From: Microthyrium microscopicum
Taxonomy: Eukaryota
Direction of reading: 5' to 3'
Length of the DNA stretch: 64,000 bases
Assembly (NCBI GenBank): GCA_010405405.1
Contig: MU004241.1
Coordinates: 620,001 to 684,000 of the forward strand
The translations under genes and the position numbers were made by a program. Shown here one piece after another: positions 32,478 through 60,503 of the stretch; the first letter of the stretch is position 1; each line of letters begins with the position of its first letter. The notes under the pieces were generated by a model, which saw only the letters and a list, made by a program, of their open reading frames with translations, did no database searches and was not told where the DNA came from.

Positions 32478-32791
32478 AGATCTCAGCCTTATTGACGAGG
32501 CGAGGCTGTAGAGGGTGACTAAGCCATGTTGTAGCTCAAGTGCTTGGAAAATATCGGGACTGATCCGGTTCCGATCACGGCTATGCCCGTACCAGACATG
32601 GCGAACCGTGCGTATCTTCAAGCTCAACAACTCTCAAACAATCCAACTGTTGCTCCTCTGTAAACATTTGCCTATTCCTACTTGCTGACGCTCTCTTCAT
32701 CGAGCATATCTAGACGCCTTCCCGCGATGAACCCTTAAGCGCACCTCCTACAGCTGCGCGGTCAGCTTCTCTCCCTCTCACAACTCTCAGC

Positions 32792-35282: not shown

Positions 35283-35537
35283 CTTGCGGTTGGTGTTTAA
35301 GTGGTGTAGGTGGGGAGAGATTTCGAATTGTTGAGGGATGGGGAGGTTGACGACGTTAGGCTTGACTGAAGGAGTGACTGGCGTTGGTAAAAATGAGAAG
35401 TGATGTTTGTTACAAAGAATTCTCAAATTATTGTTCATTGACAGACGTTCAAAAACATTTGAATGTTCAATGTCCAAAAGTTACTGCCCGAATCAACAAT
35501 GTGTTAGCCTCAGGCACGCCTTTTCTGTCCAACGCTG

Positions 35538-35748
35538 CATGTGGGCGACAAAATAAGTGACACGCTTCCATCAAGTTTGATGTCTGCCATCTGCTACGCT
35601 ATACATGTATGCTAGGGTCTATCATTTTCTTCTAATGTACTCAATCCCCCATCGAATGCGTTGGGATTTAAAGTAGCCTTTCTTGAAGAGGTGCGATGGG
35701 AGACATCATACTTGATGGGAGCGCGCCATTTATTTTGTCACCCGGTTG
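35538..35748. mobile_element. ~211-bp MITE copy
   Basis: GACAAAATAAGTGACACGCTTCCATCAAG ... CTTGATGGGAGCGCGCCATTTATTTTGTCACCCGGTTG. Confidence 0.8.
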
Positions 35749-36629
35749 ACGCGTTCAAATTCCAGATCAATCGAGACTTCATCCACATCTGTGAGCTCCT
35801 CGTTGTGTTCTTCTATTGTCATTGGTACTTTATCAATAATACAGTAACGTTTTTTATGGACTCCTCTCAAAGGTGGTGTATCCCCGAACGCATAACCTGT
35901 AGGATCTTGAACTCTTCCGCCGATAGTTGCTTCCGACAGCTTACGAACCGCCTGCTCCTCCTCTGCCGTCAAAGAAATAGACAAACCTCCCAGATTCTCT
36001 TGCAGCCGATGTAGTTTCGTTGTTCCAGGGATCGCAAAAACATCATCGCCTTGCGCCAACAACCACGCGAGACAACGGCATAGCAAAATAAATGGCGTAC
36101 CCTTATTAACTCTAATGGCTACTACCAGCGCTGCTACCTAAAAGATACTTTACTTCCTATCGTATCTAACACATACTCCTAATCCGAAAGCCTTTAAAAG
36201 TCAATAGAGTATATAGTAACAGAGCGTAGCGTCTAAGCGCTATTAGAGCTGATAGGAGTACGCCAATTATTCTGCCATGCCTTACCTAGGACCTTTCTGA
36301 TACCAAATTTGGTAGACAAGAAGATGTCTTCGCGCTTAGTTGGATTGGCCTTGAACCACTTGTTCAGGAGATCTCCCGAGTCGCCATGTTCGTCGGCTAA
36401 AGGTATTTGATTAGCAAGATGTGCAGCTAGAGAGGGCGAGGATCTTACCAGAGTCCCAGAATGTCTCGCCAGCCTTGTATACTTCGTCCAAATACGCAAG
36501 GCGTGTCTCATCTGAACCAGGTAGGCCGTAGTTGCCACTGAGGCTCATAAGTCCCAGGCCTAGACGTGGAACTTCTGGACCATTGCGGCCCAAAGGACGG
36601 GTTGGAAGAGGCTTGGTAACTTTTGACAT
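35730..36629 (-). pseudogene. aldo-keto reductase (YakC-like), internally deleted and MITE-disrupted
   Basis: The N-terminus (LPTRPLGRNGPEVPRLGLGLM..FWD..REDIFLSTKFG) is joined through a MITE directly to the C-terminal LAWLLAQGDDVFAIPGTT..LQENLG. The central barrel is missing. Confidence 0.88.
36073..36284. mobile_element. ~212-bp MITE inside AKR pseudogene
   Basis: CAACGGCATAGCAAAATAAATGGCG ... CGCCAATTATTCTGCCATGCC; colinear with 60504-60720. Flanks do not match. Confidence 0.88.
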
Positions 36630-36848
36630 GATTCGATATCTGGACAAGTGATATGAATGGGGTATTTGATGTGTTCGCTAGTTTTGTAGACCGTGGAAAC
36701 TGACAGATTTCATTCTTTTACGAATAATTATATCCGACTCGTTTCAAAAGTCTCGGACTTCTCGGACTTTGCGGTGATCTCGTATCCTTATACGTCGTAT
36801 ATATTTTTTTAATTCGTCCTGATGTCAATCTTCGCCGCCGTAAACTGC

Positions 36849-37060
36849 CAACCGGTGGAAAAAATAACTGGCATGCTCCCATCGATTTCGATAGCTCCCA
36901 CCTGACACGCTTTACTATCGAGTGCTTCATTTCCCATAAGGCGCGTTCATACTGGCACAGTTTATTGAACGCAATGGAAAATATAGCATCTTTGTTTAGT
37001 AGCGTCCATGGGAGCCATTGAAGTGGATGGGGCCACGCCAGTTATTTTGTCGACCGGTTG
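36849..37060. mobile_element. 212-bp MITE with ACTGC TSD
   Basis: CAACCGGTGGAAAAAATAACTGGC ... GCCAGTTATTTTGTCGACCGGTTG; ACTGC at 36844-36848 and 37061-37065. Confidence 0.9.
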
Positions 37061-37652
37061 ACTGCATCATGTTCCCTAAGTACAAACAACTCCGCCGGAT
37101 CGCCGTTACTTCCACCGGTATTTCCACCAACCCAAGCAACCATTATGATGGGCAATCCTATTCTTCAAAATGGCCTATTTTGCTGAAAAGGCACTTCAGC
37201 CGTCCGATACGTCTGGATGGCTGAATGTGTGTGCCAGCGAAAGTCTGCCTGCACCCGAAGCGCCCGAACGATTGACAGGAAAAGAAGGTTTTCAGAAAGA
37301 TATGTATCGTGAATCCAGACCGTTCCAACAGATCCAATATATTGCCGAGTTTCGACAACATTTGAAGGCCATAAGTACCAGTAGGTATGTTTGATGCGAT
37401 AGCCATGTTGAGAGATCCTCCCAATTCGAATGGCGTATAATTTGAACCCCCCTTGTAACGTCGGCCAAATTGGCCGTGAGCCAGCTGCCAGACAGCTTCA
37501 AGTTCCAGGCTTCTTTATGTAGTTACAGCAACGTTTTGAGGCTTATATGTTACTCGGAGCTAAATACAGATAAGTTGATATTGAAGCTAGTATCCTTCTG
37601 TTAGATCACCCTACAATTGGTCATCGGACACGATTCCTAGCCGCCTGCCACA

Positions 37653-39600
37653 ATGGATAATGACACGACTCCATCAACGTCGACATACAACCCCTCCGGC
37701 AGTTCTTCTCCCGCAGCCGCTATTCAGTTTTGTTCGCGGTGTGATAAACCTTTCACAAACGGTCAGAATTGCAAGAACATGTGCTTAGCATTTCGATGGC
37801 TGATACTAGATGTAGAAACCTCGCATCGTCGTCATGTTCGTTACTGTGGGAGTCGTACCCGGAACCGACCACGATCGTGCCGTGCCTGCAACGTTGCAAA
37901 GATCAAATGTAACTTTGAGGCACCTTGTATGAGATGCGCCAAGAAGAATATAGACTGCATCTATGATGGTCCGATGGCTGGAGCCAAACGACCATCGTCT
38001 AAATTGGCAAAAGAGGCTCCAGAAGCTCACGCAACGCCCTTGAATGTGGACGATTTTACCATGGCATACGATGATTCTGCCTATGATGGCAATCTTGAAT
38101 TGACCGACTCTTTTCGCGAATCCGCTATCAATAGCAACAACAATCTTTCCCTGATGGAGTTCAGCACATCAATGCTTGAAATTGACGAGTCCGTGATTCT
38201 GGACGATTACTTCCATCTTGAAGATCAGACCTCAGCTCAGCTTATGAGGTTACCAGAGGTTTCGTTGCTATCAAACGGAAAGAATGAGGAGCATGTTTAC
38301 CGACTGCCTTCTTGGTGTTCATGGACGCAGAGGGGTGCTACGCTTACGGCAATGACCGAGACTGCCATAGATCTGTAAGATTCCCCGTGACAAATCACAT
38401 TTCTTGACGACACTTGTTGGAACGACAACGATTATATCTCCCATCCTACTCGATGGCTACCATAGAATGCGTTCTTGACCGAGTGCTATGGAGCGCGTCG
38501 AATGCGGCAGGTCTTTTATGGTTTCACACCGACAAGACTATTTGGTCTTTTCGTTGTGTTAGCTCCAATCGTAATCTTATACTGACAGATTCCAGGGAAT
38601 CAAATCATCGGGCACTTATTGAGCCTCATCGAACATCCGCTCTGAGCTACGCTGATCTTGTGATACAAGCGCTGAGGTCCTTCCCCACGATGATGCTGAG
38701 AAAAGAGACATTTCCATGGTTTATCCATCGCCATGCCAACCTTCTAACAGACTCTGGTAGAGATCTACCCCAAGCACTTTCAATTTGCATGAGTATTTCA
38801 CAGATGTTTGTTCTACGTACTCCAGAAACAAGACACTATCTCTGGGAAACCATCAAAAGAGAAAACCAACGGTTGTTCAATCAGGTATGCTACCAGAGCT
38901 CATAATTTAGACCTCTAGCTAACAATGAACAGAAAGACCAGATGCATGCTTTTGAAATAAGCGCTTCTTTACAAGCTCAAGTAATTTATCTGGTTATGAG
39001 TCTCATCGATAGCTCCCCTGAGAGCGAAGAAGCGTGCTTGGAATTAATGGAAAGTTTGAACGTAAGTCTGCAAATATTCATTATCGTGATCTGCATGTTG
39101 ACATCTCAAGTCGCTTTATATATCAGCGAAGAAGATGCTTGCAGGACCCATGACTCCAAGTGAGCTCTCTAGCCGAAGCATGAGTTGGAAAGGTTGGATT
39201 CTCGCAGAGTCTCAGAGAAGGTAGGCTCTATACCAAAGGATTACACTGACAAGATTACTGACTGATAGCCATCCATAGAATGACTAACTTATGGTTTCTT
39301 ATTGGTACCGTCATCTGTATCAAGACAGGCATGATGTGCGATGATTCCCCCTCCTATAAGCCTATACCACTCCCTGCTCTCAAATCTCTATGGGAGGCCT
39401 CCTCGGAATCAGCCTGGGGATTTGAATATGAAGCGACTCGCAATATTCAAACAAGCGGTCTAGAGACCTTCGGTGATCTCATGGAAGCCCAAAAATATCG
39501 GTTTCTACCATCAAACGCTCAAAGACTGGACAAATGGAACGCAGGGGTCGATAATCTAGGAGTTTTATTGACTTTGGCCTCAACAATAATACGAAGCTAA
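37653..39600 (+). CDS. Zn(II)2Cys6 transcription factor with N-terminal C2H2-like finger
   Basis: CSRCDKPF..HRRHVRYC then SCRACNVAKIKCNFEAPCMRCAKKNIDC; FPWFIH, WILAESQRR, LPALKSLWEA. Several introns, including 38375-38595. Confidence 0.88.
38375..38595 (+). mobile_element. introner-like element (221-nt phase-2 intron of the TF gene)
   Basis: GTAAGA..ACTGAC..TTCCAG; removal restores the frame (IDL-ESNHR). Homologous end to end with the intron at 53547-53761. Confidence 0.8.
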
Positions 39601-39636
39601 TTAAACATCCGGACAATACCCAAGTGCTGAAGCCCG

Positions 39637-39849
39637 CAATTGCATAGCGAAATAAATGGCGTACTCCCATCAACTCTAATGGCACCTAGACGCGACGCTC
39701 TATTATTAAGTGCGTTCTTTGCTACAAAGGGCGTTCAGATTGGGAATATTCATTAGATTCGATGGGAATTAGAACATCTTCTGATTAGCAGCGCTGGTGG
39801 TAGCCATCAGAGTCCATGAGAGTACGCCATTTATTTTGCCATGCCGTTG
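39637..39849. mobile_element. 213-bp MITE with GCCCG TSD
   Basis: CAATTGCATAGCGAAATAAATGGCG ... CGCCATTTATTTTGCCATGCCGTTG; GCCCG at 39632-39636 and 39850-39854. Confidence 0.9.
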
Positions 39850-39879
39850 GCCCGCTACCTGTCTTTTACGGCGACTCAA

Positions 39880-40623
39880 CTACCAAGGAATGACTCCATC
39901 TCTGTCTGTAAAAGTTGCGGTAGCTGTACCTTTCCCAGCAGTTGCCAATTGGACAATCCGAATAGCCCCCACATCTGTCGTTGTACCATAAGGGTGATAG
40001 GCGGTTGCTTTTGTCTTCACCAAGCCAGGACAAGCGACATTCACCAAAACGCCAGTGTCGTTGAGGATTCTGGCATAGTTGAGAGCCAGCATGTTGAGAG
40101 CCGCTTTGCTACAGTCATATGCCTTGTAATCGGTGTTGTAATACAAGGTTTCCTTATTGAGCGTTTCCTGAATAGAGCCCATGCGCGAGGAGACAAAGAT
40201 CAAGCGTGCAAACTCGGATTTGCGTAGGAGAGGTAGGCATGCTTCAGTCAAGCATGCCGTGCCGGTTACATTGGTGTTCAAAGTCTGGCTGAAGAGCTCT
40301 CGTGGAGTCAGGTCTTTGTATTGCTCATGACTATCCAAAAGAATCGCGGCATTATTGATCAAGACGTCCAAAACGCCAAACTCTTTTTCGATCCAGCTTA
40401 CTGCTTTGGTGATGGAATCGTCTGATGTGATGTCGAGTTGAACTGAGGAGGCTGCAAATCCATCTGCGACTAGCTTGTCAGCTTCCCCTTTTCCGGAAGC
40501 TTCGTTGCGAGATGCAATGATGACATGGTAGCCATGGTCCTTGGCGAGCTGTTGGGCTACTGCGAGGCCGATGCCAGTGTTGGAGCCTGAGATGAGAGCG
40601 ACGGTTTTCTTGGAAGGTGACAT
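39880..40623 (-). CDS. short-chain dehydrogenase/reductase (carbonyl-reductase-like)
   Basis: SGSNTGIG, LDVLINNA, VSSRMGS, YDCSK catalytic motif; start MSPSKK at 40623. Confidence 0.92.
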   Translation of the reverse strand: MSPSKKTVALISGSNTGIGLAVAQQLAKDHGYHVIIASRNEASGKGEADKLVADGFAASSVQLDITSDDSITKAVSWIEKEFGVLDVLINNAAILLDSHEQYKDLTPRELFSQTLNTNVTGTACLTEACLPLLRKSEFARLIFVSSRMGSIQETLNKETLYYNTDYKAYDCSKAALNMLALNYARILNDTGVLVNVACPGLVKTKATAYHPYGTTTDVGAIRIVQLATAGKGTATATFTDRDGVIPW

Positions 40624-41263
40624 GTTTGGGATTGGAATTGATGGAGAGCGAAGATACTTTTTATGAGCGAGATGTAAGTCAGGTGCGAGTTGAGTTGAAC
40701 AATAGCAGAAAAGGAGAGAGATTCCCACATATAAATACAAGAACTACCACGGCCAATTTGGTCATCTTATGAATAATCGAAATAGGCCAAATTGGTCACA
40801 TCACAAAAGCGAAGCAGAAATCGGCGAATTTTGCCGAAATCCTCTAGGCCATCTTAATGTTGAAAATGATGACCGAAACCAATTGTGCTCTGAAAAGAGA
40901 GGCACCTAGGAGATCGATAATAAATATGATATGCAAATATATATTGACCTAGCATCAAAACATGGTCGAATAGTCGGCACTGTGAGATCTTGATGGACCA
41001 TGAACAAGTGCGAAACCCTCTAACCACGATAATCGCTCATTAACACATCTAACGACCACATACTATGTGTAATTTCTGTCAAGCATGTTCATATTGACTC
41101 ATTCCATCGAATTTGATGGGCAAGATGAAATGCTTTATTGTTCAAAGGTGATGGCAGCCATCGCTGTTCATGGGAATGCGCCGTAATTGGCCAATAGTTG
41201 TCAAAAGGCTTGCTTTAGTTCAGCCTTATCTCAGCCTTGCCCATTCACAACACCAGCTCAAAT

Positions 41264-44200
41264 GGGGAGGGTTAGCAAACGAAATCGTGCTCAATTCGTT
41301 TACGTGTTTTCTAGCCAAATCTAGGTTAGGGGCTATTAGCGCTCAAATCTACGAGTATTAAGCAAAAATAATACGTTATATACAAATTTTTCCTATATAC
41401 GTTTTCCTACTATAACGTTGTTATATTTTAATTAGATCTTAACTAAAAAGAGCCCAAAATAGATACTACTAAAGCTAACAATATTAAGATAGCTATTATT
41501 AGTATTTTAGTAATACTAATATATAAGCTTCTTAATAATAAACGATAAGATAAAGAATATAGGCTACTAATTGAATATATATAGTTTAATTAGTATCTTA
41601 AAGATAAGTTAGATTAAATATATAAAGTCAAATATTAGTATATACTATAAGCTTAGATTAAAGTAATATCTATAGTACTAATTAGTATATAATAGATTTA
41701 AGAAGAATAAAATATAATAGCTAGTAGAGATATTTAATCTTAATAACGTCCCTCTTCTATATTAAATTATATTTCTAAATAAAGGCAATTTCCTATTATA
41801 TATAGTATACTATAGGCTTATTAGAATTTATACCTATATTAATATTTATTAATACTTTAGAAGAAGTATTAATTATATAAAGTTCTACTTTAACGCTATA
41901 TTATTATACTTATATAATAAATATATAGAGTTATTATTACGATTCTACTCTCTCCTTATATTATTAAGATATAAGTAATATGCTAAAGCTATTAATTGTA
42001 CTAGTAGTATATATAAATTTTAGAGCTAGATTAATAGAATATATATTAATATTAGTAGGCTAGAAAGCGTCTAAATCTAGTAAGAATTCTATAGTAGTTA
42101 TAAAGGAAACTACTATATAAAAACGCAAGCTATAGCTACGCCTAATAGGATATTACTAGTACTTAATTATAGCTACTTTAGATTCTTAAATAACCTTCTA
42201 ATATTAATTAATTCTAGTCTTAAAGATAGGATTTAATAGATATTTAGTAATAGTCTAAAGAAGCTATTATATAGCGACGTAGCTTATCCTACTAATAATA
42301 TAATTATATCTCTATACTAAGGCATAGAATTACTTCTTTAGTAGTAGAACTTTAATCTATAATAAGCTAATATTTATATTGCTATAGAGTAGATATTTAC
42401 TATTTTAAAGAACTTATAGTAGGGAGAGACGTCTAACTATAGGCGTAATATATAAATAGGATTAATACTTATAGTATATTATTAGACTATATTAGTATTA
42501 TTTTAAAACTATAGAATAGTGTTATAGGGATATAATCTTATTTAGAGTTATTTTAGGGTTTTGCTATTATTAATTAATAAATATTTAAATCTTATAAGTA
42601 TATTTAATATTCTAATGCTATTAAAAGGGAAAGAAGAAGATGATTTAAATAGTATAGAATAATTATAGTATTTATTAAAGATGTTAAAGTTATAGAGTAA
42701 AGTTAGATATTTTTATTAAAGGAAGAAAAGTTAATAAGGTAGGGTTAGCTAATTATTTAATCCTTCTATATACTTTTAAAGCTTTTAGTATCTATTATAA
42801 GATTTATATAAAAACTATATTCTAATACTACTACTAAATTACCTAGAGAATACTAGAATAATCTTACTAATGCCTATTATCTAAAAGACTCTTTAATAAC
42901 TTCTTTATCTTTATTATCTCTAAGTATAATCCTTTTACCTTTTCCTTTAAGCCTATAACTTTACCTCCTTTACTACTACTACTACTACTACTACTACCTA
43001 TAAAATTATTAGCATTACTACTACCCTAATTATTATAATCTCTAAGAGCCTAAATAATTAATTTAGACATCTTTATAATAGTATCTTTTAGTATATAAAT
43101 TTCCCTAGTTCTTTTATACTTTTTCTGCGCTCTTAGAGTTAAAGTAGAAGCCCTTAAAGAGTAAGGAATTACTAGAGGGGTAGGGATACCTATAAGATTT
43201 AGCTATAGGTTATTAGAACTAATATCTTAATGTATTATTACTAATATCTCTTTAGAATTATTAAATAATTCTACAATGTTGCTATTACTATCTAAAAGAA
43301 TATTAATTAATAGGGTACCTTTCTCTAAGAGTCGTTTAGTAAGATTATTATGAGTTATAAAGCTATTATTCTTCTATATCCTTTTAGTTTTAGTAGTAGC
43401 CTTTTTAGCTTTAATAAGGTTATCGTAATAGGTCTATATAGGTTTAAATTAATTAAGCGCCTATCTAAATTCATTATACAGAATATTGTAGCCTAAAGGA
43501 TTTAATCTCTCCTCTATTTACTATAAAATTACTCTCTCTACTACTACTATTATTACTACTTTAGTAGGTCCTTTATCTATTACTAGATTCTTCTTAGTTC
43601 TATATAGGATAGAAACTATATACTACTACTAGATCTTTTATCCTATAAGGGCGTTACTACTAATACTACTATAAGTATTAATCTTCTCTAAATAGTAATA
43701 AAGAGCTATAGTTAATACTAGTGAAGCTTAATCTAGGTGCTACTTCTTACCTCTATTTAAAGAGAGTACTAGCGTTAAAGATACTAGAGTCGTAGGAACT
43801 ATAGGTACTAGTGTAGTAGTAAATGCTTACTATGAAGAGGAGGGTAAATAAGGCTTTAGCTAGCTTTGTAATAGTAATATTAGCGTAAACTAATCTAAAG
43901 ATAGTAGTATAGTACTATTTTGGCGTATATTTCTATATTGTAGTTAGGGCTAGAGATCCTATAGTAGTAATAGTAGTATTTGCTAAGAATTAGCCTTCTA
44001 GCTAAATTCCTATATCTATAATCCTATAATAAAGTTAAAATTAGGATTTTAGCTAATATACGCCTTATTATAGGGTATTTACGTAAGAGCTATCTTATTA
44101 ATATTATAGGCTTTCTTAAATAACTCTAAATACTATAATTCTAGCTATTCTTATAATTCTTACTATTATAGAAGGTACTAAATTAACTCTTCTAGTAAGG

Positions 44201-44565
44201 AATTAGTATTGTTAAGTAAGTATTATAAATTTAAAGATATACTAATAATATAGATAAATTTATATAGTATTTTACTACCTATAGCTATATTAAAGATTTA
44301 TTTAACTTTATTAACTTTAATAGCTTTAGCGACTTTAGGATACGTCCCCTAATGACATTCTTAGACTTGTAAATTAACGGAATATCGTTTAAATAGATAC
44401 TAAGCTAATCCTATCTTAGTGCCACTAAACCCTTTTGATTAAACGAAATGGAAGTTAAGCTACTAGATCTTAGGTCTAGCGGCTTGACTTCCTTTTCGTT
44501 TACTAGCTATTTTGGGTAAAGATCTGCAAACGAATTGGGCATGATTTCGTTTGCTAACCCTCCCC
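41264..44565 (+). mobile_element. RIPed PIF/Harbinger-superfamily DNA transposon (ANT TSD, Pangu-like)
   Basis: ~40-bp TIR GGGGAGGGTTAGCAAACGAAATC..; TSD AAT/AAT. The de-RIPed + strand gives FWGWIDG..RP..FYSG..PDG..LYGD.AY transposase motifs (~41460-42560). Confidence 0.9.
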
Positions 44566-44923
44566 AATCAGCTCAATTTTGGCAACATCTGCCCTTGTTC
44601 CTGCCTCATTTTGTTGGCGCTAACGCCGCATTTGATATTGCTCAGGATGGATGGTACTGATTGAGACACCGCTTCGAAGATCAAGATACCTATCAGTTGC
44701 TATCCCTAAATAATGCAAGCTAGGAAGGTGAGCATGTACTTATTGATCTTTCATTGGCTGAAAGAGAGCACAGACAGTGAAGAGTCTGCAAAACGCACGG
44801 AAAAAGGTTACTCCTATGTCGAAGCCTAGCATGTGCCTAGGAGAAAGGTTGTTCCTTAGTCCGGCTTGGCGAAAGTGAGAGACGTTTAAGCGCATCGCCC
44901 GAGCCCACCACTCCATCCCTCCT

Positions 44924-45166
44924 TAGCTCTCTTTGGTTTGTGTTCCCTCGCCTTCAAGTTTGGATGCAGTTTGCTAACAGTGTGCAGCCTTTTGGCTTAG
45001 ATCAAGTGTAGTATCTGTTCTTACGACCTTAACAGGTCGTACACCTCTACGTGAGGAAGTACAACTGTTAAGCCACTTTTTGCAACCAGCTTGCGCACTC
45101 CCTGGGCTTGCCCATAGTCGCAGGCACTGTGTCCTCTGTATTGCACTGCCTCAGAGTGACGCGAAA
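44924..45166 (+). ncRNA. U2: U2 spliceosomal snRNA containing a 52-nt spliceosomal intron (44936-44987)
   Basis: Spliced AGCTCTCTTTG|CCTTTTGGCTTAGATCAAGTGTAGTATCTGTTCTT matches the fungal U2 5' end. Stems IIa/IIb/IIc, Sm-like ACTTTTTG and stem IV loop TATTGCAC present. Mature size ~190 nt; ends approximate. Confidence 0.93.
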
Positions 45167-46167
45167 TCCTTTTTTTCATTGCAGTCTTTGCCTAGAGCAG
45201 AGATGTGAGGAAGAAATACTTCAACCTTTTATTGAATCGTGGAGGGCGATATTGCTTGATACTGAGTTTTGGTGGTGAATTAGGGACGATGAATTTTGGT
45301 GGTGAAAACTCAAAATCTGTGCGTTTAGCGGGCGCTGTAACAGCGGTCAGGTCTTTCGTTGAACATTCAAGCAGTATCTTGGTACTATCGAACAGTGGAT
45401 AGATGTCTAGTTGCTATATTCTACACTTTCATTGCCATATAGATTGCTCATGAGCGACATGCTGTTGGACAAAGTAAACATTGAATGACAGCAGCCTTTG
45501 GTGATGGGAGCAAAAGTCTTTCGTCAAAACTCTTCGATGGAACATTGAAGTGCCATAGTTCCCATCGCCTTATTCACACTAAATCAGCGTTTTAGATCAT
45601 AGACATCACAGGTGACGGAAAGCGATCAGCTTTTTTGTCCATTTTGGTCAGCAATCTTGAGTGCGAGGGTTGGCTGAAATTTTGGTCCAGCGGTGGTGGG
45701 TACAGCAAATCTACGACGGCATTGCCAGGCGGCATCTGGACTGGCTAGTAGAGCAGATACATCTCATAGCATGATACTTATAGTCTCATAGACTCAAGAT
45801 AGATACGCAGCAAAGCCATCATCCAGAGTCGAACGCAACGCACAGTGATCGCACTCATTAAGGCCCCTCCATCAATATTCAGCACCAGCGCGGAGTAACA
45901 AGCCAGATAGGTAAACATGCAAAATGGCTCTCAGCCACGACTGTAGCTTTATACATCTATAGATTGTGATTTCAAGTATCTATTTGCAATATAAAGTCGC
46001 TCTTCAACAAGCCCACAGCCCTTCGCTATTCGCCAGCTAGGCTCACCTCGGTACAGGCAAAAAATGGATTCATCAACACCAGCAATAGCTCACATGCCAA
46101 TCAGCCGCAGATATCTAGCATCTCCCATCTAACCAGTATCATATCATAATATTCTTATCACTACATA

Positions 46168-47014
46168 ATGAAGCCGGCAGACCGAACCTTTGTCATCTCA
46201 GGCGCCTGCTCTGGCCTCGGGCTTGCCACAGTTCGCGACCTTCATTCCGAAGGAGCCTACATCGCCTTACTCGACCTCAACGAAGATGCTGGCGCAGAAA
46301 TCGTCAAAGAGCTAGGCGACCGCGTCAAATTCTTCGAATGCGATGTTAGCGAGACCAGTAGCGTAACAAAGGCGGTACATGGTGCGGCAGAATGGATCAA
46401 GACTACAGGAAAACCAATGGGCGGAGTGGTAGCTGCCGCTGGTGTTGGGGGCGCACAAAAGGTGGGTTGGAAATGATCAAGCTTCACTTCTACACTGGTA
46501 GCTAATATACAATCAGATCGTCGACGGGCGAACAGGCGAACCAATTCCCATTGAAGCTATCGACTTCATCCTCAATATCAATATTCGTGGAACGCTCGAT
46601 CTTGTCCGACTCTGCATGGCCCATCTTGTCAAAGTTACTCCTACGAGCCCCGATGGCGAGCGTGGTGTTCTCATTCTCGTGGCTTCATCTGCTGCCTTCG
46701 ATGGTCAACCGGGCCAGGTCGCATATGCTGCCTCAAAAGGTGCCATCGCTTCCCTTACACTTCCGCTAGCTCGAGATGTTGCACGATATGGCGTACGAGT
46801 TGTTACAATCGCACCAAGTTTGTTCGAGAGTAGGATGACTGCGGTATTGCCTGAGAAGGCTCGAAAGAGTTTGGAGCGGGTTATGGAATTTCCAGTTCGT
46901 GCGGGAAAGCCGGAGGAGTTCGCGAGCTTGGTTCGACAAGGTGTTGAGAACTTGATGCTGAACGGAACGGTCTTGAGACTTGACGGGGCAATGAGAATGC
47001 CCAGTAAGATGTAA
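46168..47014 (+). CDS. 3-hydroxyacyl-CoA dehydrogenase type-2 (HSD17B10-like SDR)
   Basis: SGACSGLG, ERGVLILVASSAAFDGQPGQVAYAASKG, MLNGTVLRLDGAMRMP; intron ~46462-46517. Confidence 0.92.
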
Positions 47015-47097
47015 AAACTGTTAGAAATATTATGCCATAGAAGTGTTTCTGGAAACAATATTCAAACAGAGAATCAAATCCATACGGAATCGGATAT

Positions 47098-47814
47098 TCA
47101 TCGCTTTCTCTCTCTAACCTTGAATTTGACACCTTTTTTGTTGACACCTCCAATACTGTTGCTCATCTTCGCTCTTTGTAGTTCCAGTTCCCTCGAAGCA
47201 GTGATGAGCTCTTCTTCCCGTTTCTTCAGGGCCTCCAGTGTCCGTAACTCCTGTTTTCGTGCCTTTGACTCTGGTGTCTTGCTCGGCACATCGTCATCTT
47301 CTTCGCTTAACCATATATCCTCGCTTTCGTCATCCTCGCTCTCCTCTTCTTCCACTTTATATGCATCCCGATCCTCCACAGTTTCCACGAAGACGACCTT
47401 CTTCGCGTTGCCGTCAAAGCCTAGAGCCTCAACCCCATCATCACCAACTCTTAACGCACCCTCTATCCGTGCTCTCTCCAGCCGCGTACGCTGCAACACC
47501 GTCCGTAAATATCCAGCATCTTGTGTCTTGAGCAGTTGTACCACCTCATGGCTCAGAGCCTTATTGCCACGATCACCAATTTTGACGCCTGCCTTGGTGC
47601 GCGTGCTCATCATGCCGAAGGTAAACTCATCGGGGTTACGGTCGCGTGCTTTCTCACGCAGCACCTTTAGATGCTTGCGCTTCTTCTTGTGGTCTGCAGC
47701 ACGTAGCGAGTAGTCGCTGTGTTTTTCGAGGAGGCCCCATTTGGCGCGTGAGGCAGGTTGGGCGCGTTCGCGGTGGTTGCGCCGCTGAATAGCGTTGCGC
47801 ATTGTGGAGGACAT
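47098..47814 (-). CDS. UTP11: U3 snoRNP/SSU processome protein Utp11
   Basis: MSSTMRNAIQRRNHRERAQP..GLLEKHSDY..RNPDEF.FGM..LLKTQD..KVRERKR. Confidence 0.95.
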   Translation of the reverse strand: MSSTMRNAIQRRNHRERAQPASRAKWGLLEKHSDYSLRAADHKKKRKHLKVLREKARDRNPDEFTFGMMSTRTKAGVKIGDRGNKALSHEVVQLLKTQDAGYLRTVLQRTRLERARIEGALRVGDDGVEALGFDGNAKKVVFVETVEDRDAYKVEEEESEDDESEDIWLSEEDDDVPSKTPESKARKQELRTLEALKKREEELITASRELELQRAKMSNSIGGVNKKGVKFKVRERKR

Positions 47815-48207
47815 GGCGGGCGGTGGGCTGCGGGAGAACGGTTTTCGACAGTGTATTTGTGTTCAGTAGAGCAGTTTGACGTAGTAAACGCGGATTTTGA
47901 AGTATGGGTTCGCGTGTGAGGTGTAAGAAAAGTTGGTTGGAGTAGAGTAGTTTCGATGGTTGGATGTACAAATTTCCCACTTTTTTTGGCGGGCAAAAAC
48001 GACCCAAATTTTGCACTTCCTCCACCACCAAATCACTTATTTTCATCGTCTGTTCTCACCATCGATAATACGTTGATTTGCGTTGATGATTAATCTCGAC
48101 TCTGAAACTAAGCATCCCTTAATTGCTAAAAAGATACTAGGAACTCCTTAGGATGTCTTGATCCACGCCCGTCACCCGAACATATTCCACATCCTTTCCG
48201 GCTTCGA

Positions 48208-48585
48208 CTATCGTGGAGCTGGCCCATCCTCCTGCTTGATCTCAAACTTCTCAAGGTCCGGTCTATCCAGCATTCGACAGTTAATTCCCATCTTCTTGAC
48301 TGATTTATCTGGGTGTGCCCAATGTGTCACGCAACCACAAATTTTACAACGGTGGAATTCCAAGTACTTTCCTTCGTTTGCTGGCTTGTTGCGCACGTAG
48401 ATGTCGGTTTCGCCTTCAATTTGGACTTGGCTTGGCTCGTAATAGGCCCACAAAGCAGCGTAGCGACCACAAATTGAGCACAAGCATTGGTTCAAGGGCC
48501 TGTCAGTCGTTGATCTGGTGAAGTGGATGCGAACGGCTTTGCATTGGCAGGTCGCGGTGAGTGAGAGCTTTTCGGATTCTGCCAT
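48208..48585 (-). CDS. GFA/CENP-V-like (Mss4-like) zinc protein
   Basis: CQCKAV, CLCSIC, FHRCKICG..MGINCR pattern. Confidence 0.88.
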   Translation of the reverse strand: MAESEKLSLTATCQCKAVRIHFTRSTTDRPLNQCLCSICGRYAALWAYYEPSQVQIEGETDIYVRNKPANEGKYLEFHRCKICGCVTHWAHPDKSVKKMGINCRMLDRPDLEKFEIKQEDGPAPR

Positions 48586-49037
48586 TTGTGATTGAGATGG
48601 TGAGAAGAGCTGAGATCATATGGGATTGAATGAGTTTAGAATAGTTTTAGGCTCTCGTACACGCTCTATCTTGGTTTTTTCGTGTTAAGATAGCACGATG
48701 ACTCTGCTTCCCCTCATCGCAGCCTAGAAGCTTACCGTATTGTTGCATCTGTGTTGCTTGGGCCGCGCTGTGATTGGCGACATGGACAACGGCGTTTGAC
48801 AAGGCTTCTCTGCCTTTCTTTGTACTTGTACAGAAAAGATCCATACATGCATTATGACGAATCCTCGATAGACATCTTTCAGCTGTTGCGGCTTCGTGGT
48901 TGCATGGTCACGCCAAACGAGCTGCTGGATCACGGGCATCAATTGACCATCTGAATGTTAAGTACTCTATCTCTACAAGCAGACTGAAGTAAATCTCACT
49001 GCCAAATGTTCATGTATTCACACTCAATTATATTCAA

Positions 49038-49786
49038 TTATGGAAGGCTATTCTCGACCATATCAATGCCATAAGTTGGCTTGTATCCTTTAATAAATCG
49101 TACACCATATTGCTCTGAAAAAGATTCTACCATCTTGTTAGCAAGACATCAAGTGGTTTCCTCCTTTCTCCAAACTTACCAATGGTGGCTTGAGGTTTAG
49201 TCTCTGCAAAACCACACAATATACGACGTATTCCTGCCGCCAAGTCCAATCGCGGAAATTCTGCAGTGACGGCATGGTACTCGTCCCAAGTCAACGTCTT
49301 CGTAGGATCAGTTGTCGGCCCTTGGAAGTCACTGGCAATGCCAGCACCAACAACCTGTACCAGTGGCTGTTTGAATGCTGCAATGCTGGGAGTGGTATGC
49401 AACGCAATTGCGTCCCAAATAAGATCTTTCTTGCTCTCGTCCAGGTTGCTCGCAAGACCATCCTTTTGCTGCTTGTCGATCCAGGCGCGGGCTGCAATGG
49501 CACCGTCAACTTCAAAGCGTTTGTCGCTGGATATCAGCTCGCCTGTATTGTCCCATCCGAGGTCGTGCATGATTGCTGCGATTGCTTGGGCTTCTGGGTC
49601 AACTGGGCCTAGGAAGGGCTCAAGTTTCTTGGATATAGTGACGCCGAAGAGCCAGCTGCGCATTACGTGGTTGTATGTCATGTCATCGCTGTGGGCACGG
49701 GCATATTGCTGAGCAGCTTTGACGAGATCGGTATCTACCACTGTTACTCCTGCGATTGTTCTTGTTGGTTGTTGTGAGGATGCCAT
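49038..49786 (-). CDS. HD-domain metal-dependent hydrolase (cyanamide-hydratase-like family)
   Basis: YNHVMRSW, AIMHDLGW, RFEVDGA, WDAIALHT; 3' intron ~49128-49180. Confidence 0.85.
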
Positions 49787-50363
49787 TTGGACGAATGGAA
49801 CTTTGATTGCTATCACTATAGGCTGTATCAAAGCTGGGAAGTGTAATGAAAAACGGGTCATCAAGTTTTTATGGCCATGGGACAAACAGCCTTATATGTT
49901 TTTAAAAACATTCCAAATGTTTATACAACCAGATCTCCTCGGTTCTTCAAGCTCGCAGCTCCAACGCATTAGTGTGGATGACTAAACTATCATCAGCAAT
50001 TTCCGATTTTGGTTGATGAGAATAAACATAAACCGTTACAGCGCGGATCCGCAATAATGGTAGTGATTTGTTGTACATTTCCAGCAGCCAAGCGGATGGC
50101 AACTGGAAGCGATGCGACGGAGGGCTGTTGTAAGCGGGTTATGTAGCAAATAGCTGATTTCCATTGCGGCTATTTTCGTCTCCTGGCGTTAAGCAAGCTT
50201 GCAGTAACATTAATGCAAGCCCAGAACTTGTTATACAAAGCGTTTGAGGACATGAAATATGGTGACCATGTGCAATTATGTCTGACCAACATAAGGTACC
50301 ATGGATACAGGTATGGAGCAACATAATGTTAAGCAGACTCTCCTCTCCCAGATATAAGGTCCA

Positions 50364-50861
50364 TCATGTATTCCCATTCACAGCCTGAGAACCCTCTAGT
50401 ATCGCCAGTAAATCGTTACGTTTGAACATCTTTGCGCAGTCGACAGCATTCGGGTGCCCAGCATTGACATCCGCATGTCCTTTCTCAACCAAAACTCTCA
50501 CCACATCCATGTATCCTTTGAATACTGAGCCAGCTAGAGGGCTCTGTCCGCGATCATTGAGGGCATTTGCATCAGCTCCAGCATCTAGAAGCATCGAAAC
50601 CGTTTCGGCATGGCCATGGTACGCGGCGAGCATCAATAACGTGTCTCCAGTGCCGTTTGTGAGGTTAGGAGGAATGCCGGCTTGGACGTAAGGTTGCAGA
50701 CTTGTGGTAGATCCGGCACGAGCATGATCAAAGAGTTTTGTGGCTAATTCGATCGCTTCTGGGGGCAGACTTGAGGCATCCCGTGTTGTGCTTGTGGCGG
50801 TTGCCTCATTTGATGATGAAGGTTGAGATGGAGCAGAAGAGGGATGTGTTTGGTCCGTCAT
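50364..50861 (-). CDS. small ankyrin-repeat protein
   Basis: GDTLLMLAAYHGH, NDRGQSPLAGSVFKG. Confidence 0.9.
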   Translation of the reverse strand: MTDQTHPSSAPSQPSSSNEATATSTTRDASSLPPEAIELATKLFDHARAGSTTSLQPYVQAGIPPNLTNGTGDTLLMLAAYHGHAETVSMLLDAGADANALNDRGQSPLAGSVFKGYMDVVRVLVEKGHADVNAGHPNAVDCAKMFKRNDLLAILEGSQAVNGNT

Positions 50862-52651
50862 AATACTACATGGAAAGTTGGACTCCTCGAAATCTCCTGG
50901 CTGAATCTGACGGGTGAAAGCGGCAAAACTTTGGAAAATGTAAAAGCTTGGAGCTCAACAGGTTGAATCTGACTCAAGACCTCTACATTCAAAAAAGCTT
51001 TCAAGAGATCTGGGCATCGAGATATAAACAGTGTAGGCGACCAGTTTGCTCAATCATAGAATTTGAGCGCGAATAGTCAACTTGAAGTGGCGGCCGCACC
51101 GAACAGGAAGCTGAATCGCCCGAGAACAGTTGAAGGACGACTCGGAATTGATGATGTATGACGTCATCATTGACTGGAGAGTTTTTTGCTACATCATGTC
51201 TATCGGTCATGAACCCCAAATCAGATGGTTTCATGTGCTTTTATGTATTTTACTTTTCTTTGGATTGGAAGGGCTCTGCTTCTTTTCCAGAGTACGTGCT
51301 TACCATAGTGAAGTGCGGTGCTGAATGGAGAATTGTACGCAGATCCTTCAGCCTTGTTCTCAGCCTTATTGGGAAAAAGTACAGCTTTACTAGTATGGTC
51401 TTTGCTAGCAGGCTCATATCATGTTATAAGAAAAATTTCAAGACCAGTGCGCACAGGAATCATCAAGGCCATTTGTGAGGACGCTCCCATCGAGTACGAT
51501 GTCTGCCATAACACGTCTTATAAAGAGTGATCGTTTTGTTTCTCATCACTGTACTCGATGGCATCATTCCCTTAAAGGCTCTGCTGATTGTGACACAGAA
51601 AAGGAGAAATAGCAGCAAAACGCAGTAGTAACATTATTAATCACGTTTTGAATTGGCAAAGATTTGTTATTTGGACAGCCTAGCGCTGTTATTAAGATAA
51701 ACTACTAATTGGATCTAGTAGATCGCTGATATAGTGAGATCGAAGCATCACTTAGAGGCCTCGAACTTTCGTCCAGTGGTAACGCTGCTATTGAAGGTAT
51801 ATCTTGGTGATCTGGCACTTTACATAGCGTCAATTGGCTACGAATTGCCTCTACATCAGCAGCCTCTTTCAAAGCTTTACCTGATAAAAATTAGACATCA
51901 GTTCCAACACCATCCAGGCAATGGCACTTACTAGCCCGTACTTCCCTTTCGCGGCAGACTCGTCTTTGAAAGCCACTGTATGAATATTCCTCACCGCTTT
52001 CGAGCCGTAAGAAGCCATGAACTGTAGTCCCACAGAGTGGCTAGAAAGTGTTAGTTACAGACTACAGTAAACGCACGAAAATATCATGGTGAATGCTTCG
52101 ATGAAGAACCATCACACTTCATGGTTGCCACCAATTGCGATGGGCGCCACGATGTGTTTTTGGCTTTATCATATATCCTCAAAAAATGTAATTTGACGCG
52201 GGGGTTTCTTACATATCGAGCGTATAGTCTGGCAGGCCGCAGAGTGATTGCGCTGGTAAATATTAGCCATTGGCATACTGATACATTGAAAGATATCAAT
52301 TGCCATGGGAGCCATCGCCTGCTATGAAAGCCATCGATTAGGATAGGGACTTCTTGCCAGGTGGGAGCATACGAAACATCAAAGGATACGCGACTTACTG
52401 TACAAAGGCGATCGGTCGAGACAGATGCCTTCCAATGCGATGGGAGCCATCTAGTCAGTTGGCAATCACGAGTTCACAAAAGAAACAAGACTTGTTTGTA
52501 TGCAAGAAAGTCCATCGTATGGACGAAATTGACGTATCACATATAAAGTCTTCAACGCGCTCAATGCTCAATGCTGCAAAATCATACTCTATGAACTTTA
52601 AAATAACCGATACTAAAGGCAACCCGGAACATCGAACAGAACACGCCTTGA

Positions 52652-54114
52652 TTAGGTTTCCTTGGCCCATTGCTTCCCGCTCCAGAGATCGCCAGTAGTC
52701 CAAAGCCAGTAATCACGGCCTTTGATCATCCAGACCAACCAGCTGGGAATCTGCCATCCCATTGCCGCACCAACGCCTTTGTTTCTTCCAATTGGTACTA
52801 GCTGGGTCTCGCGAGTATCTGCCTTGAAAAGCTTCTCATCTCCAACTGCTTTCATTCCAGCGGCAAGAAGTAGATCACGCTTGATGTTCGAACCAAGAAT
52901 AGGAACTGCATTCAGAATTTGATGAATCGCTGGACGCGCGAATGACGATGCATCACCAATCGCGTAGACTCGCTCCCCAACCTTTTCAACTCTCAGAGCT
53001 GCATTGACTTTCACTCGACCATCCGCTTCAAGCAGCGATTTGTCCACAAAATTAGTATTTGGCGTTGTACCCGTCGCAGGAATGTACAGGTCTGCCTCCA
53101 GTGTCTTGCCATCCGCGAGTATCGCCTTGGCTCGAGTTGCAACATTCTCTTTGGTCCCGGCACCAGATGGCTCCACGGCATTGATTCGGGTGTTCTTGAT
53201 GACATTAACTCCAACACAGGCAAGAAACACCTCTGCTTTTCTTGCAATTGATGGTCGAAGGCCTGGTAAAATTTCAGAACCGGCAGTGACGAGTGTTATG
53301 GCAACCTTCGGGCTCTCAAGTGTAGAGTTGAACCAGCCAGCGCTACCATTGAGATACTCGCCTAATTCTCCCGCGGTTTCGACGCCACTTGCGCCACCTC
53401 CAGATATCACGATGCTCTTGGCTGATGAGAGTTCTGAGCGAAACGCGGCCCAGCTGCTTCGAAGGTATTGTTCGTCCTTATTCAAGCCAAGTAGTGGAGA
53501 TGGTGTTGAAGCGCCAGTGGCAATGACCAAGGCGTAGAAGCCAATCCTGGAATTTGTCAGTCTAAGATTATGATCGAAGCTAACACAACCAAAGAAAACA
53601 ATTAGTCTTTTCGTGGCAAAATCATGAATATCCTATTACATTCAGTTTGATCTATATTAAGAACGCACTCTATGGTAGCCATCGAGTACGATGGGAGATA
53701 TGATTGTTTTCGTTTCAACAGATGTCGTCAAGAAATGTGATTTGGCATGGGGAATTCCTACCTCTCGGTCTCAATCCCAACGCTCACAGAAACAGTCCGG
53801 TTGACATGATCGAGTTCTGTTGCAGTGCCTTGAACAAATCGAAAGTTTTGACTTGGATATTGCTCAAACTGTACAGGAATGTTGACGAAAAGTTTCTCTT
53901 GAGGAAGCAAGTCGTCCGAGATCAGCGCGCGAGGGCAGGCTGGTCGACACAGGGCTTGAGAAGCTGTACTGACGATTATGACTTGGTATGTCTCATTGTC
54001 TGTCAGAACTGGTATGGTGTGCTTGAGGGTATAGTGAGCGATGGATATTCCACAATAAGAACCACCAAGGATGACAATGTTCTTTTGGGGCGTCGAGGTC
54101 TTTGTTTGGTCCAT
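52652..54114 (-). CDS. AMID/AIF-like FAD-dependent pyridine nucleotide-disulfide oxidoreductase
   Basis: IVILGGSYCG, LVIATGA, GGGASGVETAGE, VYAIGD; a single 215-nt intron at 53547-53761. Confidence 0.9.
53547..53761 (-). mobile_element. introner-like element (215-nt phase-2 intron of the AMID-like gene)
   Basis: Minus strand GTAGGA..ACTGAC..TTCCAG; removal gives ETER-IGFYALVIATG. Homologous to 38375-38595. Confidence 0.8.
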
Positions 54115-56709: not shown

Positions 56710-57120
56710 GGTTATGTGAAGGAAGATGTAGAATTGAGTGGTTCAGCAGCGGGTTTGCTGCGCTATGATAGCCTGAGTAGTGACATTCACGAAGGTTGAC
56801 TTGGTCAGCAACAAGTAAGATGGCGGTGGACAGGTGCAAGCTATGCTCTAGTATGAACAAGATATAGAGAGTGCAGTGAGGAAGAAAAGGATGAAAGGTC
56901 AATTGTTCCGATATGAACAAACAGTGGAGTTGGATATGTTTGAGCAGGTGAAGGTGAAAGGATCCAGGCGATGTGGCTGAAATGTGGGGAATCTCAATGA
57001 CCAAGGTTCCAGGGAACCCGCGTCATCATTGGAGTCTGTGCCTTTCGTGCCCGTCAAACAAGGTTCAGTCATAAGGCTGAGCATAAAACTGGCAGCTGCA
57101 ACCTTTTAAACTTGACTACT

Positions 57121-60444: not shown

Positions 60445-60503
60445 ACTCATAGTGGCAACTTACTAATATCCGGATGTAGTTGAACTCTCCACTGCAAGCA
60501 TCT

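What the first reader, a model, noticed from the sequence alone, without database searches (positions are those of the whole stretch)
38375..53761. Two homologous full-length introns in unrelated genes: candidate introner-like element
Seen: the 221-nt TF intron (38375-38595, +) and the 215-nt AMID-like intron (53547-53761, -) align from donor to acceptor. 5' ends: GTAAGATTCCCCGTGACAAATCACATTTCTTGACGACA vs GTAGGAATTCCCCATGCCAAATCACATTTCTTGACGACA (about 12 differences in the first ~100 nt by eye). 3' ends: GTTGTGTTAGCTCCAATCGTAATCTTATACTGACAGATTCCAG vs GTTGTGTTAGCTTCGATCATAATCTTAGACTGACAAATTCCAG. Similarity stops at the splice sites. Both are phase 2 and about four times longer than the ~50-nt introns typical here. 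The TF copy is self-complementary (TTGGAACGACAACGA vs TCGTTGTGTTAGCTCCAA; 5' GTAAGATT vs AATCTTA before the branch site). Known: introner-like elements are multicopy hairpin introns causing intron gain in some fungi. Inference: a mobile intron family, possibly undescribed.
Basis: partly seen in the sequence, partly recalled or inferred. Interest (0 to 1): 0.9.

Follow-up and report, generated by a model that had tools for sequence, protein, structure and literature searches.

The report
Old mobile-intron family in a fungus
Two unusually long introns in unrelated genes of the leaf-litter fungus Microthyrium microscopicum are copies of one sequence from first to last base, the mark of a known kind of self-copying intron that has not been reported in this species.

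Summary
Intron 38375-38595 (+, 221 nt) and intron 53547-53761 (-, 215 nt) are 79% identical from GT to AG (blastn E 2e-43). Their exon flanks are unrelated.

The second intron is exactly the one removed in the public protein model of a Microthyrium microscopicum oxidoreductase. The first is absent from all 3 homologues of the transcription-factor gene that I found.

A profile of the two finds two decayed relatives close by: 52041-52212 (E 9e-11) and 52253-52398 (E 8e-4).

No copy has target-site duplications or terminal inverted repeats. All carry their own donor, branch site and acceptor. They are about four times longer than nine predicted ordinary introns (47-56 nt).

This fits the introner-like elements (ILEs) of Dothideomycetes, here as an old, diverged family.

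What I could not show:
- Genome-wide copy number: no genome was held, and read laying failed.
- Splicing by RNA.
- An unusually stable fold (z -1.0 to -1.6).

Two published screens list this genome with zero introner families.

A lead worth following: the intron core resembles a very abundant local MITE.

Verdict: a new member of a known kind, of moderate interest.

The parts
38375..38595 (+). ILE copy 1: a 221-nt phase-2 intron of the Zn2Cys6 transcription-factor gene. Donor GTAAGA, branch CTGAC, acceptor CAG.
   Evidence: Sequence; phase. tblastn alignments of 3 of 3 homologues break at 38360-38369 / 38597 and resume colinearly.
53547..53761 (-). ILE copy 2: a 215-nt phase-2 intron, the only intron of the AIF/AMID-like FAD/NAD(P)-binding oxidoreductase gene. 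Donor GTAGGA, branch CTGAC, acceptor CAG.
   Evidence: Sequence. The CDS spliced at exactly these ends translates letter for letter to P0001, 415 aa, named by NCBI for Microthyrium microscopicum.
52041..52212 (-). ILE copy 3: decayed, 172 nt, with a roughly 43-nt deletion. It keeps GTAAGA, CTAAC and TAG. It lies in a short ORF of unverified status.
   Evidence: A profile built from copies 1 and 2 only scores 36.3 bits, E 9.4e-11, starting at model position 1. It is 57-63% identical to copies 1 and 2. No homologue of the surrounding ORF was found.
52253..52398 (-). ILE relic 4: 146 nt, bounded by GTAAGT and CAG. Only the core is recognisable. It lies 40 nt upstream of copy 3.
   Evidence: The profile of copies 1 and 2 scores 13.7 bits, E 7.7e-4, model positions 67-148. 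blastn gives 81% over 32 nt. Sequence.
38438..38463 (+). Best-kept core of the family, a short hairpin (CCCATC ... GATGG). This is the part that resembles the local MITE.
   Evidence: Columns 76-100 have 24 of 25 identical. Five of the six predicted stem pairs are kept in all three copies. MITE similarity.
37653..39600 (+). Host gene 1: fungal Zn(2)-Cys(6) transcription factor. The CDS is approximate, and the other introns are short (for example 38885-38932, 48 nt).
   Evidence: Translation; homologues P0121-P0123 carry PF00172; tblastn.
52652..54114 (-). Host gene 2: AIF/AMID-like pyridine-nucleotide-disulphide oxidoreductase, CDS including the stop codon.
   Evidence: Pfam PF07992 and PF00070; 1349 homologues; exact match to P0001.
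51872..52450 (-). Putative host 3: a short ORF starting at ATG 52450. Its two candidate introns are copy 3 and relic 4. Its coding status is not established.
   Evidence: Reading frames; no homologue among proteins of 33-107 aa.

Best explanation
These are members of one family of introner-like elements (ILEs): spliceosomal introns that were copied as a complete unit, from GT to AG, into unrelated genes of Microthyrium microscopicum.

Each copy carries its own donor, branch site and acceptor, so the spliceosome can remove it wherever it lands. That explains why homology begins and ends exactly at the splice sites.

The lack of target-site duplications and terminal inverted repeats fits the RNA route proposed for ascomycete ILEs: an excised intron reverse-splices into another transcript or into DNA, is reverse-transcribed, and is fixed by recombination. 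That route is inferred, not shown.

The family is old:
- The two best copies are 79% identical. That gives a Jukes-Cantor distance of about 0.25, or roughly 10-120 million years at the fungal rates of 1e-8 to 1e-9 quoted in PMC12130899.
- Two further copies have decayed in sequence and length towards ordinary introns, as the published ILE life-cycle model predicts.
For: Shown:
- Whole-intron homology with E 2e-43 and unrelated flanks.
- The AMID-like copy is exactly the intron of the public gene model.
- Removing the TF copy restores a colinear alignment with 3 of 3 homologues. These are unspliced genomic ORFs: they read into, or stop in, the neighbouring 48-nt intron. All three lack any interruption at the ILE site, so the intron looks gained.
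- A profile of the two copies finds a third member at E 9.4e-11, aligned from the very GT, and a fourth at E 7.7e-4. Both are bounded by GT..AG with a branch motif.
- There is no terminal inverted repeat and no flank duplication.
- Lengths are 215-221 nt against 47-56 nt for nine predicted ordinary introns.
- The ends are 82-86% identical and the centre 50%.
- Two inner helices are kept in both good copies, each with one change on both sides.
- No Rfam family matches, which argues against intron-hosted snoRNA paralogues.

From print: the definitions and the decay model of ILEs come from PMC3609843, whole text read except part 3 of 3, which I took to be the rest of its reference list, and from PMC4457414, the outline with its abstract and sections 3 and 10 read.
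Against: - Copy number in the genome is unknown.
- The supplement tables of two genome-wide screens list this species' assembly with 0 introner families: PMC9860276 Supplementary Table 4 and PMC12130899 file 7. Their rule is at least 4 introns with similarity at both ends, E below 1e-5. The BLAST task they used is not stated in the text I searched, so I cannot tell whether a 79% pair would have passed.
- The copies are not 'near-identical'.
- Predicted folds are not significantly more stable than shuffles. The pairing counts do not beat shuffles: 130 of 500 shuffles reach the observed value.
- Splicing rests on annotation and homology only.
- Copies 3 and 4 lie in an ORF with no homologue, so they may not be introns of a real gene.
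- Three of the four members sit within 1.7 kb on one strand, which random spread does not predict.
Confidence: 0.62

Rival explanations
1. Low-copy intron duplication (the 'LCI' class of Collemare et al. 2013). An ordinary intron was copied a few times by rare intron transposition, with no dedicated multicopy element behind it.
For: Only four members are seen, two of them decayed. Published screens list 0 families for this genome. Three members are clustered within 1.7 kb, as expected from re-insertion into the same or a read-through transcript. LCIs occur in nearly all fungi surveyed.
Against: LCIs are reported to have the length and folding energy of ordinary introns, whereas these are four times longer. 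Four members in one 64-kb window would be surprising for a family of a handful, unless spread is local. The decay series (221, 215, 172, 146 nt) matches the ILE model.
Confidence: 0.22
2. An introner derived from a DNA transposon. The family descends from, or moves like, the abundant local MITE (about 213 nt, about 50-nt inverted ends, 5-bp target duplication) and inserts at the DNA level.
For: Positions 65-128 of the ILE profile resemble the sub-terminal part of the MITE. Of the 11 hits with E of 1 or less beyond the four ILE members, 7 fall in MITE copies, which cover under 4% of the window. The reversed-window control has no hit better than E 4.7. In the reciprocal search, the MITE profile hits both ILEs at E 0.026 and 0.061. 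Gapped colinear scores against 7 MITEs exceed most controls: 7 of 300 and 3 of 300 controls are as high. Clustering could be local re-insertion.
Against: The ILE ends have no inverted repeat and no target duplication. The first 62 and last 90 nt show no MITE similarity. All four members lie in one orientation relative to their (putative) transcripts and are bounded by GT..AG. The MITE copies themselves are intergenic with clean 5-bp duplications. The shared stretch is short and of borderline E-value. Copy 3 does not exceed controls (166 of 300 as high).
Confidence: 0.1
3. Two unrelated, pre-existing introns each received the same dispersed repeat, so only the insert is homologous.
For: This is the commonest false positive in introner screens. 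The core does resemble a local repeat.
Against: Homology covers the first and last bases, including the donor region, branch site and acceptor. The ends are the best conserved parts. The TF position is empty in 3 of 3 homologues.
Confidence: 0.04
4. Chance similarity, or a segmental or paralogous duplication that carried the intron along with its exons.
For: None beyond the nearby direct repeats of AT-rich DNA.
Against: E 2e-43. Flanks share 11-16 of 40 bases. The host proteins belong to different families. The two copies are in opposite orientation and fall outside the 15.9-kb-spaced repeat.
Confidence: 0.01

Closest known systems
Introner-like elements (ILEs) of Dothideomycetes (van der Burgt et al. 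2012, as described in PMC3609843 and PMC4457414)
   Same: Complete spliceosomal introns repeated in unrelated genes, carrying their own splice signals. They are longer than ordinary introns, have no target duplication or inverted ends, sit at a gained position, and decay in sequence and length. The host is in the same fungal class.
   Different: Only four members were seen and the genome-wide number is unknown. The best pair is 79% identical rather than near-identical. The predicted fold is not significantly stable. The host order (Microthyriales) is not among the species listed in those papers. No sequence comparison with published ILE families was possible here.
Introners as defined by Gozashti et al. 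2022 and 2025 (PMC9860276, PMC12130899)
   Same: Similarity reaches both intron ends and stops at the exons, and the host genes are not paralogues. The absence of target-site duplications and inverted ends matches what is reported for ascomycete families.
   Different: Their rule needs at least 4 such introns. Here two pass clearly, and the third is recognisable mainly at its 5' end. Both papers' supplement tables give this species' assembly 0 families.
Low-copy introns (LCI) and same-gene duplications (PMC3609843)
   Same: Few copies, some of them very close together on one strand.
   Different: LCIs are reported to have ordinary length and folding energy; these are four times longer. The flanking exons are not duplicated.
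Sister (stw)introns of Hypoxylaceae (PMC8469720, outline and abstract read)
   Same: Proliferated fungal introns integrated seamlessly, without flanking duplications. Internal complementarity may bring the ends together.
   Different: Those have 45-55-nt terminal inverted repeats and a nested intron in the donor. Here the longest internal inverted repeat is 15 nt and no nested intron is seen.

Membership tests
Introner-like element (ILE) | A spliceosomal intron with canonical donor, branch point and acceptor | tested here: met
   GTAAGA or GTAGGA donor, CTGAC branch, CAG acceptor. Exact match of the spliced CDS to the public protein. Colinear homologues for the TF gene. No RNA evidence.
Introner-like element (ILE) | [quoted passage not shown] | tested here: inconclusive
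   The hosts are unrelated and the flanks random. Identity is 79%, and 57-63% for the third copy: homologous but not near-identical.
Introner-like element (ILE) | High copy number (tens to hundreds; a profile search at least doubles the cluster) | not testable with these tools
   No genome was held. The metagenome pattern scan gave 3 chance matches. Within the window, a profile of 2 copies found 4 members.
Introner-like element (ILE) | Longer than regular introns | tested here: met
   221 and 215 nt against 47-56 nt for nine heuristic candidates.
Introner-like element (ILE) | Stable predicted secondary structure (low free energy) with compensatory changes | tested here: inconclusive
   Energies are -55.2 and -44.0 kcal/mol, but z is only -1.31 and -1.63. 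Two of 20 proposed pairs change on both sides; 130 of 500 shuffles do as well.
Introner-like element (ILE) | Sits at a gained intron position | tested here: met
   TF copy: 3 of 3 homologous genomic ORFs are uninterrupted at the site. AMID-like copy: not testable, because no orthologue DNA was available; the protein is colinear with 12 homologues.
Introner (Gozashti pipeline definition) | At least 4 introns from different paralogy groups with similarity at both ends, E below 1e-5 | tested here: not met
   In the window only copies 1 and 2 match at both ends. For copy 3, blastn matches only the 5' 98 nt. Published tables give 0 families for this assembly. I could not test this genome-wide.
MITE / TIR-transposon-derived introner | Terminal inverted repeats and locus-specific target-site duplications | tested here: not met
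   No terminal inverted repeat and no flank duplication. By contrast, 4 of 7 local MITE copies have perfect 5-bp duplications.
Intron-hosted snoRNA paralogues | A conserved known RNA family inside otherwise diverged introns | tested here: not met
   0 Rfam matches at E up to 1. Conservation is highest at the intron ends. An undescribed RNA is not excluded.

The most novel reading that the evidence does not exclude
The ILE family arose from the very abundant 5-bp-duplication MITE of the same genome, or captured part of it. The ILE core (profile positions 65-128) is homologous to the MITE's sub-terminal region, and three of four ILE members cluster within 1.7 kb. If that is so, an ascomycete introner-like element, a class whose origin and way of moving are unknown, would be tied to a terminal-inverted-repeat transposon that later switched to spreading as a complete intron, with local re-insertion.
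Probability: 0.15. Interest if true: 0.7.

Novelty: new member of a known kind. Interest (0 to 1): 0.4.

Why it matters
ILEs are the main documented source of new introns in some fungi, and how they move is still unknown. This case adds an order (Microthyriales) and a species that two large screens scored as free of introners. It suggests those screens miss old, diverged families, so past intron invasions may be more common in fungi than the counts imply. The window also shows a decay series within one locus: 221, 215, 172 and 146 nt. The resemblance between the ILE core and a local MITE offers a testable lead on where such elements come from.

Tried and rejected
- Whole genome: none is held for this window.
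- Sequencing runs: one search listed four DNA runs of the likely source sample and no holder on record as RNA ('no RNA holder listed'). Two runs were guessed to be RNA.
So there is no splicing, copy-number or presence/absence evidence from reads.
- Metagenome scan: a 22-nt family-wide pattern gave 3 loci, all chance matches that do not extend beyond the pattern.
- Search for other copies mistranslated inside proteins: a 62-aa open frame of the TF intron, searched against 1.84 billion representatives, gave 3 hits. The two that I read are tandem-repeat artefacts; the third shows the same pattern of many matched stretches at low identity.
- Host gene 3: a 36-aa query was too short. The 61-aa ORF found no homologue of 33-107 aa.
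- The species' own TF protein was not among proteins of 325-2000 aa, so the public model of that gene is unknown to me.
- Rfam: no match.
- Earlier scan notes: nothing on this genome or sequence. The 8 notes shown for the word 'introner' concern other organisms.
- Segmental duplication with the 15.9-kb-spaced AT-rich repeat: rejected, because orientation and offset do not fit.
- RIP as the cause of divergence: transitions are 32 of 45 differences, and GC-to-AT changes number 28 against 13 the other way. This is suggestive only.
- Literature: searches for 'introner-like elements' with 'Microthyrium' and for 'Microthyrium microscopicum' with 'genome' found no paper describing repeated introns in this species.
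Full report
WHAT IS THERE

The window is fungal. GC-rich gene blocks of 43-53% GC lie between AT-rich blocks of about 20% GC.

The protein encoded at 54114-52652 (-) is 100% identical to a 415-aa protein that NCBI names 'FAD/NAD(P)-binding domain-containing protein [Microthyrium microscopicum]'. Microthyrium microscopicum is a Dothideomycete.

One is 38375-38595 (+), 221 nt. The other is 53547-53761 (-), 215 nt. Both have GT and AG at the stated ends.

THE OBSERVATION

- The two introns align from the first to the last base. blastn gives 77% over 217 columns, E 2e-43. MAFFT gives 168 of 213 positions identical.
- The 40 nt of exon on either side share 15/40 and 11/40 bases, which is random.
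- Conservation is uneven. Columns 1-100 have 84 of 98 identical and the last 50 columns have 41 of 50. Columns 101-150 have only 25 of 50.
- Both introns are phase 2.
- A heuristic scan for introns that join long open frames gives nine short candidates of 47-56 nt in the window's genes. The two are therefore about four times the local norm.

ARE THEY INTRONS?

For the oxidoreductase gene the answer is as firm as it can be without RNA. Joining 54114-53762 to 53546-52655 translates exactly to the public protein P0001. That protein is colinear with 12 homologues across the junction.

For the transcription-factor gene, three homologues were found. Their tblastn alignments stop at 38360-38369 and resume at 38597, with no residues unaccounted for beyond the 14 nt of exon in between.

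Those three proteins are evidently unspliced ORF calls on genomic contigs. At the window's next intron (38885-38932) each continues with a valine, which is the GT donor read as a codon. Each then either runs through about 16 non-homologous residues or stops.

All three are uninterrupted at the position of the 221-nt intron. The intron is therefore absent from 3 of 3 relatives while a neighbouring short intron is shared. This is the pattern of a gained intron.

MORE MEMBERS

A profile built only from the two introns finds two further members.
- 52212-52098: 36.3 bits, E 9.4e-11. The alignment starts at the very GT.
- 52347-52267: 13.7 bits, E 7.7e-4.

Read with their surroundings, the first is a 172-nt unit, 52041-52212. 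It runs from GTAAGA through CTAAC to TAG and is 57-63% identical to the two good copies, with a roughly 43-nt deletion. The second is a 146-nt unit, 52253-52398. It runs from GTAAGT to CAG, and only the core is recognisable.

These two are 40 nt apart, on the same strand as the oxidoreductase gene and just downstream of it. They lie inside a short ORF that starts at 52450. I found no homologue for that ORF, so their status as working introns is unproven.

WHAT IT IS NOT

- There are no terminal inverted repeats; the longest internal inverted repeat is 15 nt.
- There is no flank duplication.
- There is no Rfam family, so no known intron-hosted snoRNA.
- It is not a segmental duplication. The flanks are unrelated, the host proteins belong to different families, and the copies are inverted relative to each other.
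- It is not a repeat dropped into older introns, because the ends are the best-conserved parts.

FOLDING

The two inner helices are kept in the second copy (100% and 93% of cells paired), each with one G-C to A-U double change.

With three sequences this is not significant: 130 of 500 shuffles do as well. The minimum free energies (-55.2, -44.0 and -38.6 kcal/mol) lie only 1.0-1.6 sd below shuffles. Calling these 'hairpin introns' is therefore not supported statistically, although pairing that brings the two ends together is plausible.

COMPARISON WITH WHAT IS KNOWN

ILEs were described in six Dothideomycetes. [quoted passage not shown] They are longer than ordinary introns, have stable predicted folds, account for most recent intron gains, and decay in sequence and length until they look ordinary. 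The same work separates 'low-copy introns' and 'same-gene duplications', which have ordinary length (PMC3609843; PMC4457414).

Later surveys call such elements introners. They note that the fungal ones lack target duplications and inverted ends and are thought to move through RNA (PMC9860276, passages).

The present family meets these tests:
- it is a complete intron with its own signals;
- its hosts are unrelated;
- it is long;
- it sits at a gained position;
- it has no duplications.

It fails or leaves open these tests:
- near-identity;
- copy number;
- fold stability.

Both surveys include this species. Supplementary Table 4 of the 2022 paper has 'Microthyrium_microscopicum_CBS_115976' with ie = 0. 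File 7 of the 2025 paper lists its assembly with 0 introner families. Their rule is at least four introns from different paralogy groups with similarity at both ends, E below 1e-5. The text I searched does not state the BLAST task, so a family at about 79% identity may or may not have been detectable.

Either the family is small, or it is old enough to have escaped. In both cases it has not been described. My searches for the species with 'introner-like elements' and with 'genome' found nothing on its introns.

HOW IT MOST LIKELY WORKS

Shown: the unit that was copied is the intron itself, with its splice signals and without a footprint.

Inferred: it spread as ascomycete ILEs are proposed to. 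An excised intron reverse-splices into another RNA or DNA, is reverse-transcribed and is fixed by recombination.

The Jukes-Cantor distance between the two good copies is about 0.25. At the fungal rates of 1e-8 to 1e-9 per site per year quoted in PMC12130899, they separated roughly 10 to 120 million years ago. Substitutions are transition-rich (32 of 45) and lean towards AT in the oxidoreductase copy, so RIP-like mutation may have inflated that figure.

TWO THINGS THAT DO NOT FIT NEATLY

First, three of the four members lie within 1.7 kb on one strand. Random spread, even of a large family, does not predict this. It hints at re-insertion into the same or a read-through transcript, or at local re-insertion in DNA.

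Second, the ILE core resembles a local MITE.
- The MITE is about 213 nt with about 50-nt inverted ends. Four of 7 copies checked have perfect 5-bp target duplications. There are nine full-length copies and three fragments in about 43 kb of GC-rich DNA.
- The similarity centres on a 26-nt motif. Its local alignment score is reached by 0-2 of 500 shuffles for the two good copies, and by 24 and 70 of 500 for the third.
- With profiles, the similarity extends to ILE positions 65-128.
- Of the 11 hits with E of 1 or less beyond the four ILE members, 7 fall in MITE copies. The MITE profile hits the two ILEs at E 0.026 and 0.061. Searches of the reversed window give nothing better than E 4.7 and 3.3.
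- Gapped colinear scores against 7 MITEs are matched by 7 of 300 controls for the TF copy and 3 of 300 for the oxidoreductase copy. The third copy is not distinguishable from controls (166 of 300).

I read this as a real but short shared segment. It could be an old MITE fragment inside the progenitor intron, or a sign that the ILE descends from the MITE. The ILE ends show no MITE features, so I give the second reading about 15%.

VERDICT

This is best filed as an old, diverged introner-like intron family in a species and order where none has been reported: a new member of a known kind.

Noticed in passing
32257-32486, 35531-35756, 36067-36289, 36842-37065, 39630-39857, 60499-60728, 61049-61238, 61642-61865, 63281-63507; fragments 41035-41182, 51482-51527, 62925-62995: A very dense MITE-like family, about 213 nt long. 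It has about 50-nt terminal inverted repeats beginning CAACSG, and perfect 5-bp target-site duplications in 4 of 7 copies checked. There is roughly one copy per 4.5 kb of GC-rich DNA, mostly between genes. Its superfamily was not determined.
   Followed up: partly
35930-36680 (-): Remnant of an aldo/keto-reductase gene. Pfam PF00248 positions 1-79 and 244-290 are present, and the MITE copy 36067-36289 lies where positions 80-243 should be. It is probably a pseudogene with a MITE-associated deletion.
   Followed up: partly
1-21500, 41000-45000, 57000-60500: AT-rich blocks of 18-28% GC. Stretches 41402-44328 and 57260-60238 are direct copies at 72-82% identity, spaced about 15.9 kb apart. They look like RIP-decayed repeats bracketing a gene block.
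   Followed up: no
51872-52450 (-): A short ORF between the oxidoreductase and ankyrin genes. Its first 25 nt resemble the ILE/MITE core (E 1) and its two candidate introns are decayed ILEs. The strong donor and acceptor of a third candidate intron lead to a stop after 3 codons. No homologue was found. It may be a young or spurious gene, or part of a read-through transcript.
   Followed up: partly
37762-37809 (+): A non-conserved stretch of 17-22 residues inside the zinc-finger-like N-terminus of the transcription factor and its three homologues. In the window it coincides with a possible in-frame 48-nt intron with a weak donor, GTCAGA. Whether it is spliced is open.
   Followed up: no
39883-40743 (-), 46119-47014 (+), 52652-54114 (-), 37653-39600 (+): Two short-chain dehydrogenases, the oxidoreductase and a Zn2Cys6 regulator lie within 17 kb. 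Some sources name homologues of the oxidoreductase 'oxidoreductase ptaL'. This might be a small secondary-metabolism neighbourhood. I did not examine it.
   Followed up: no
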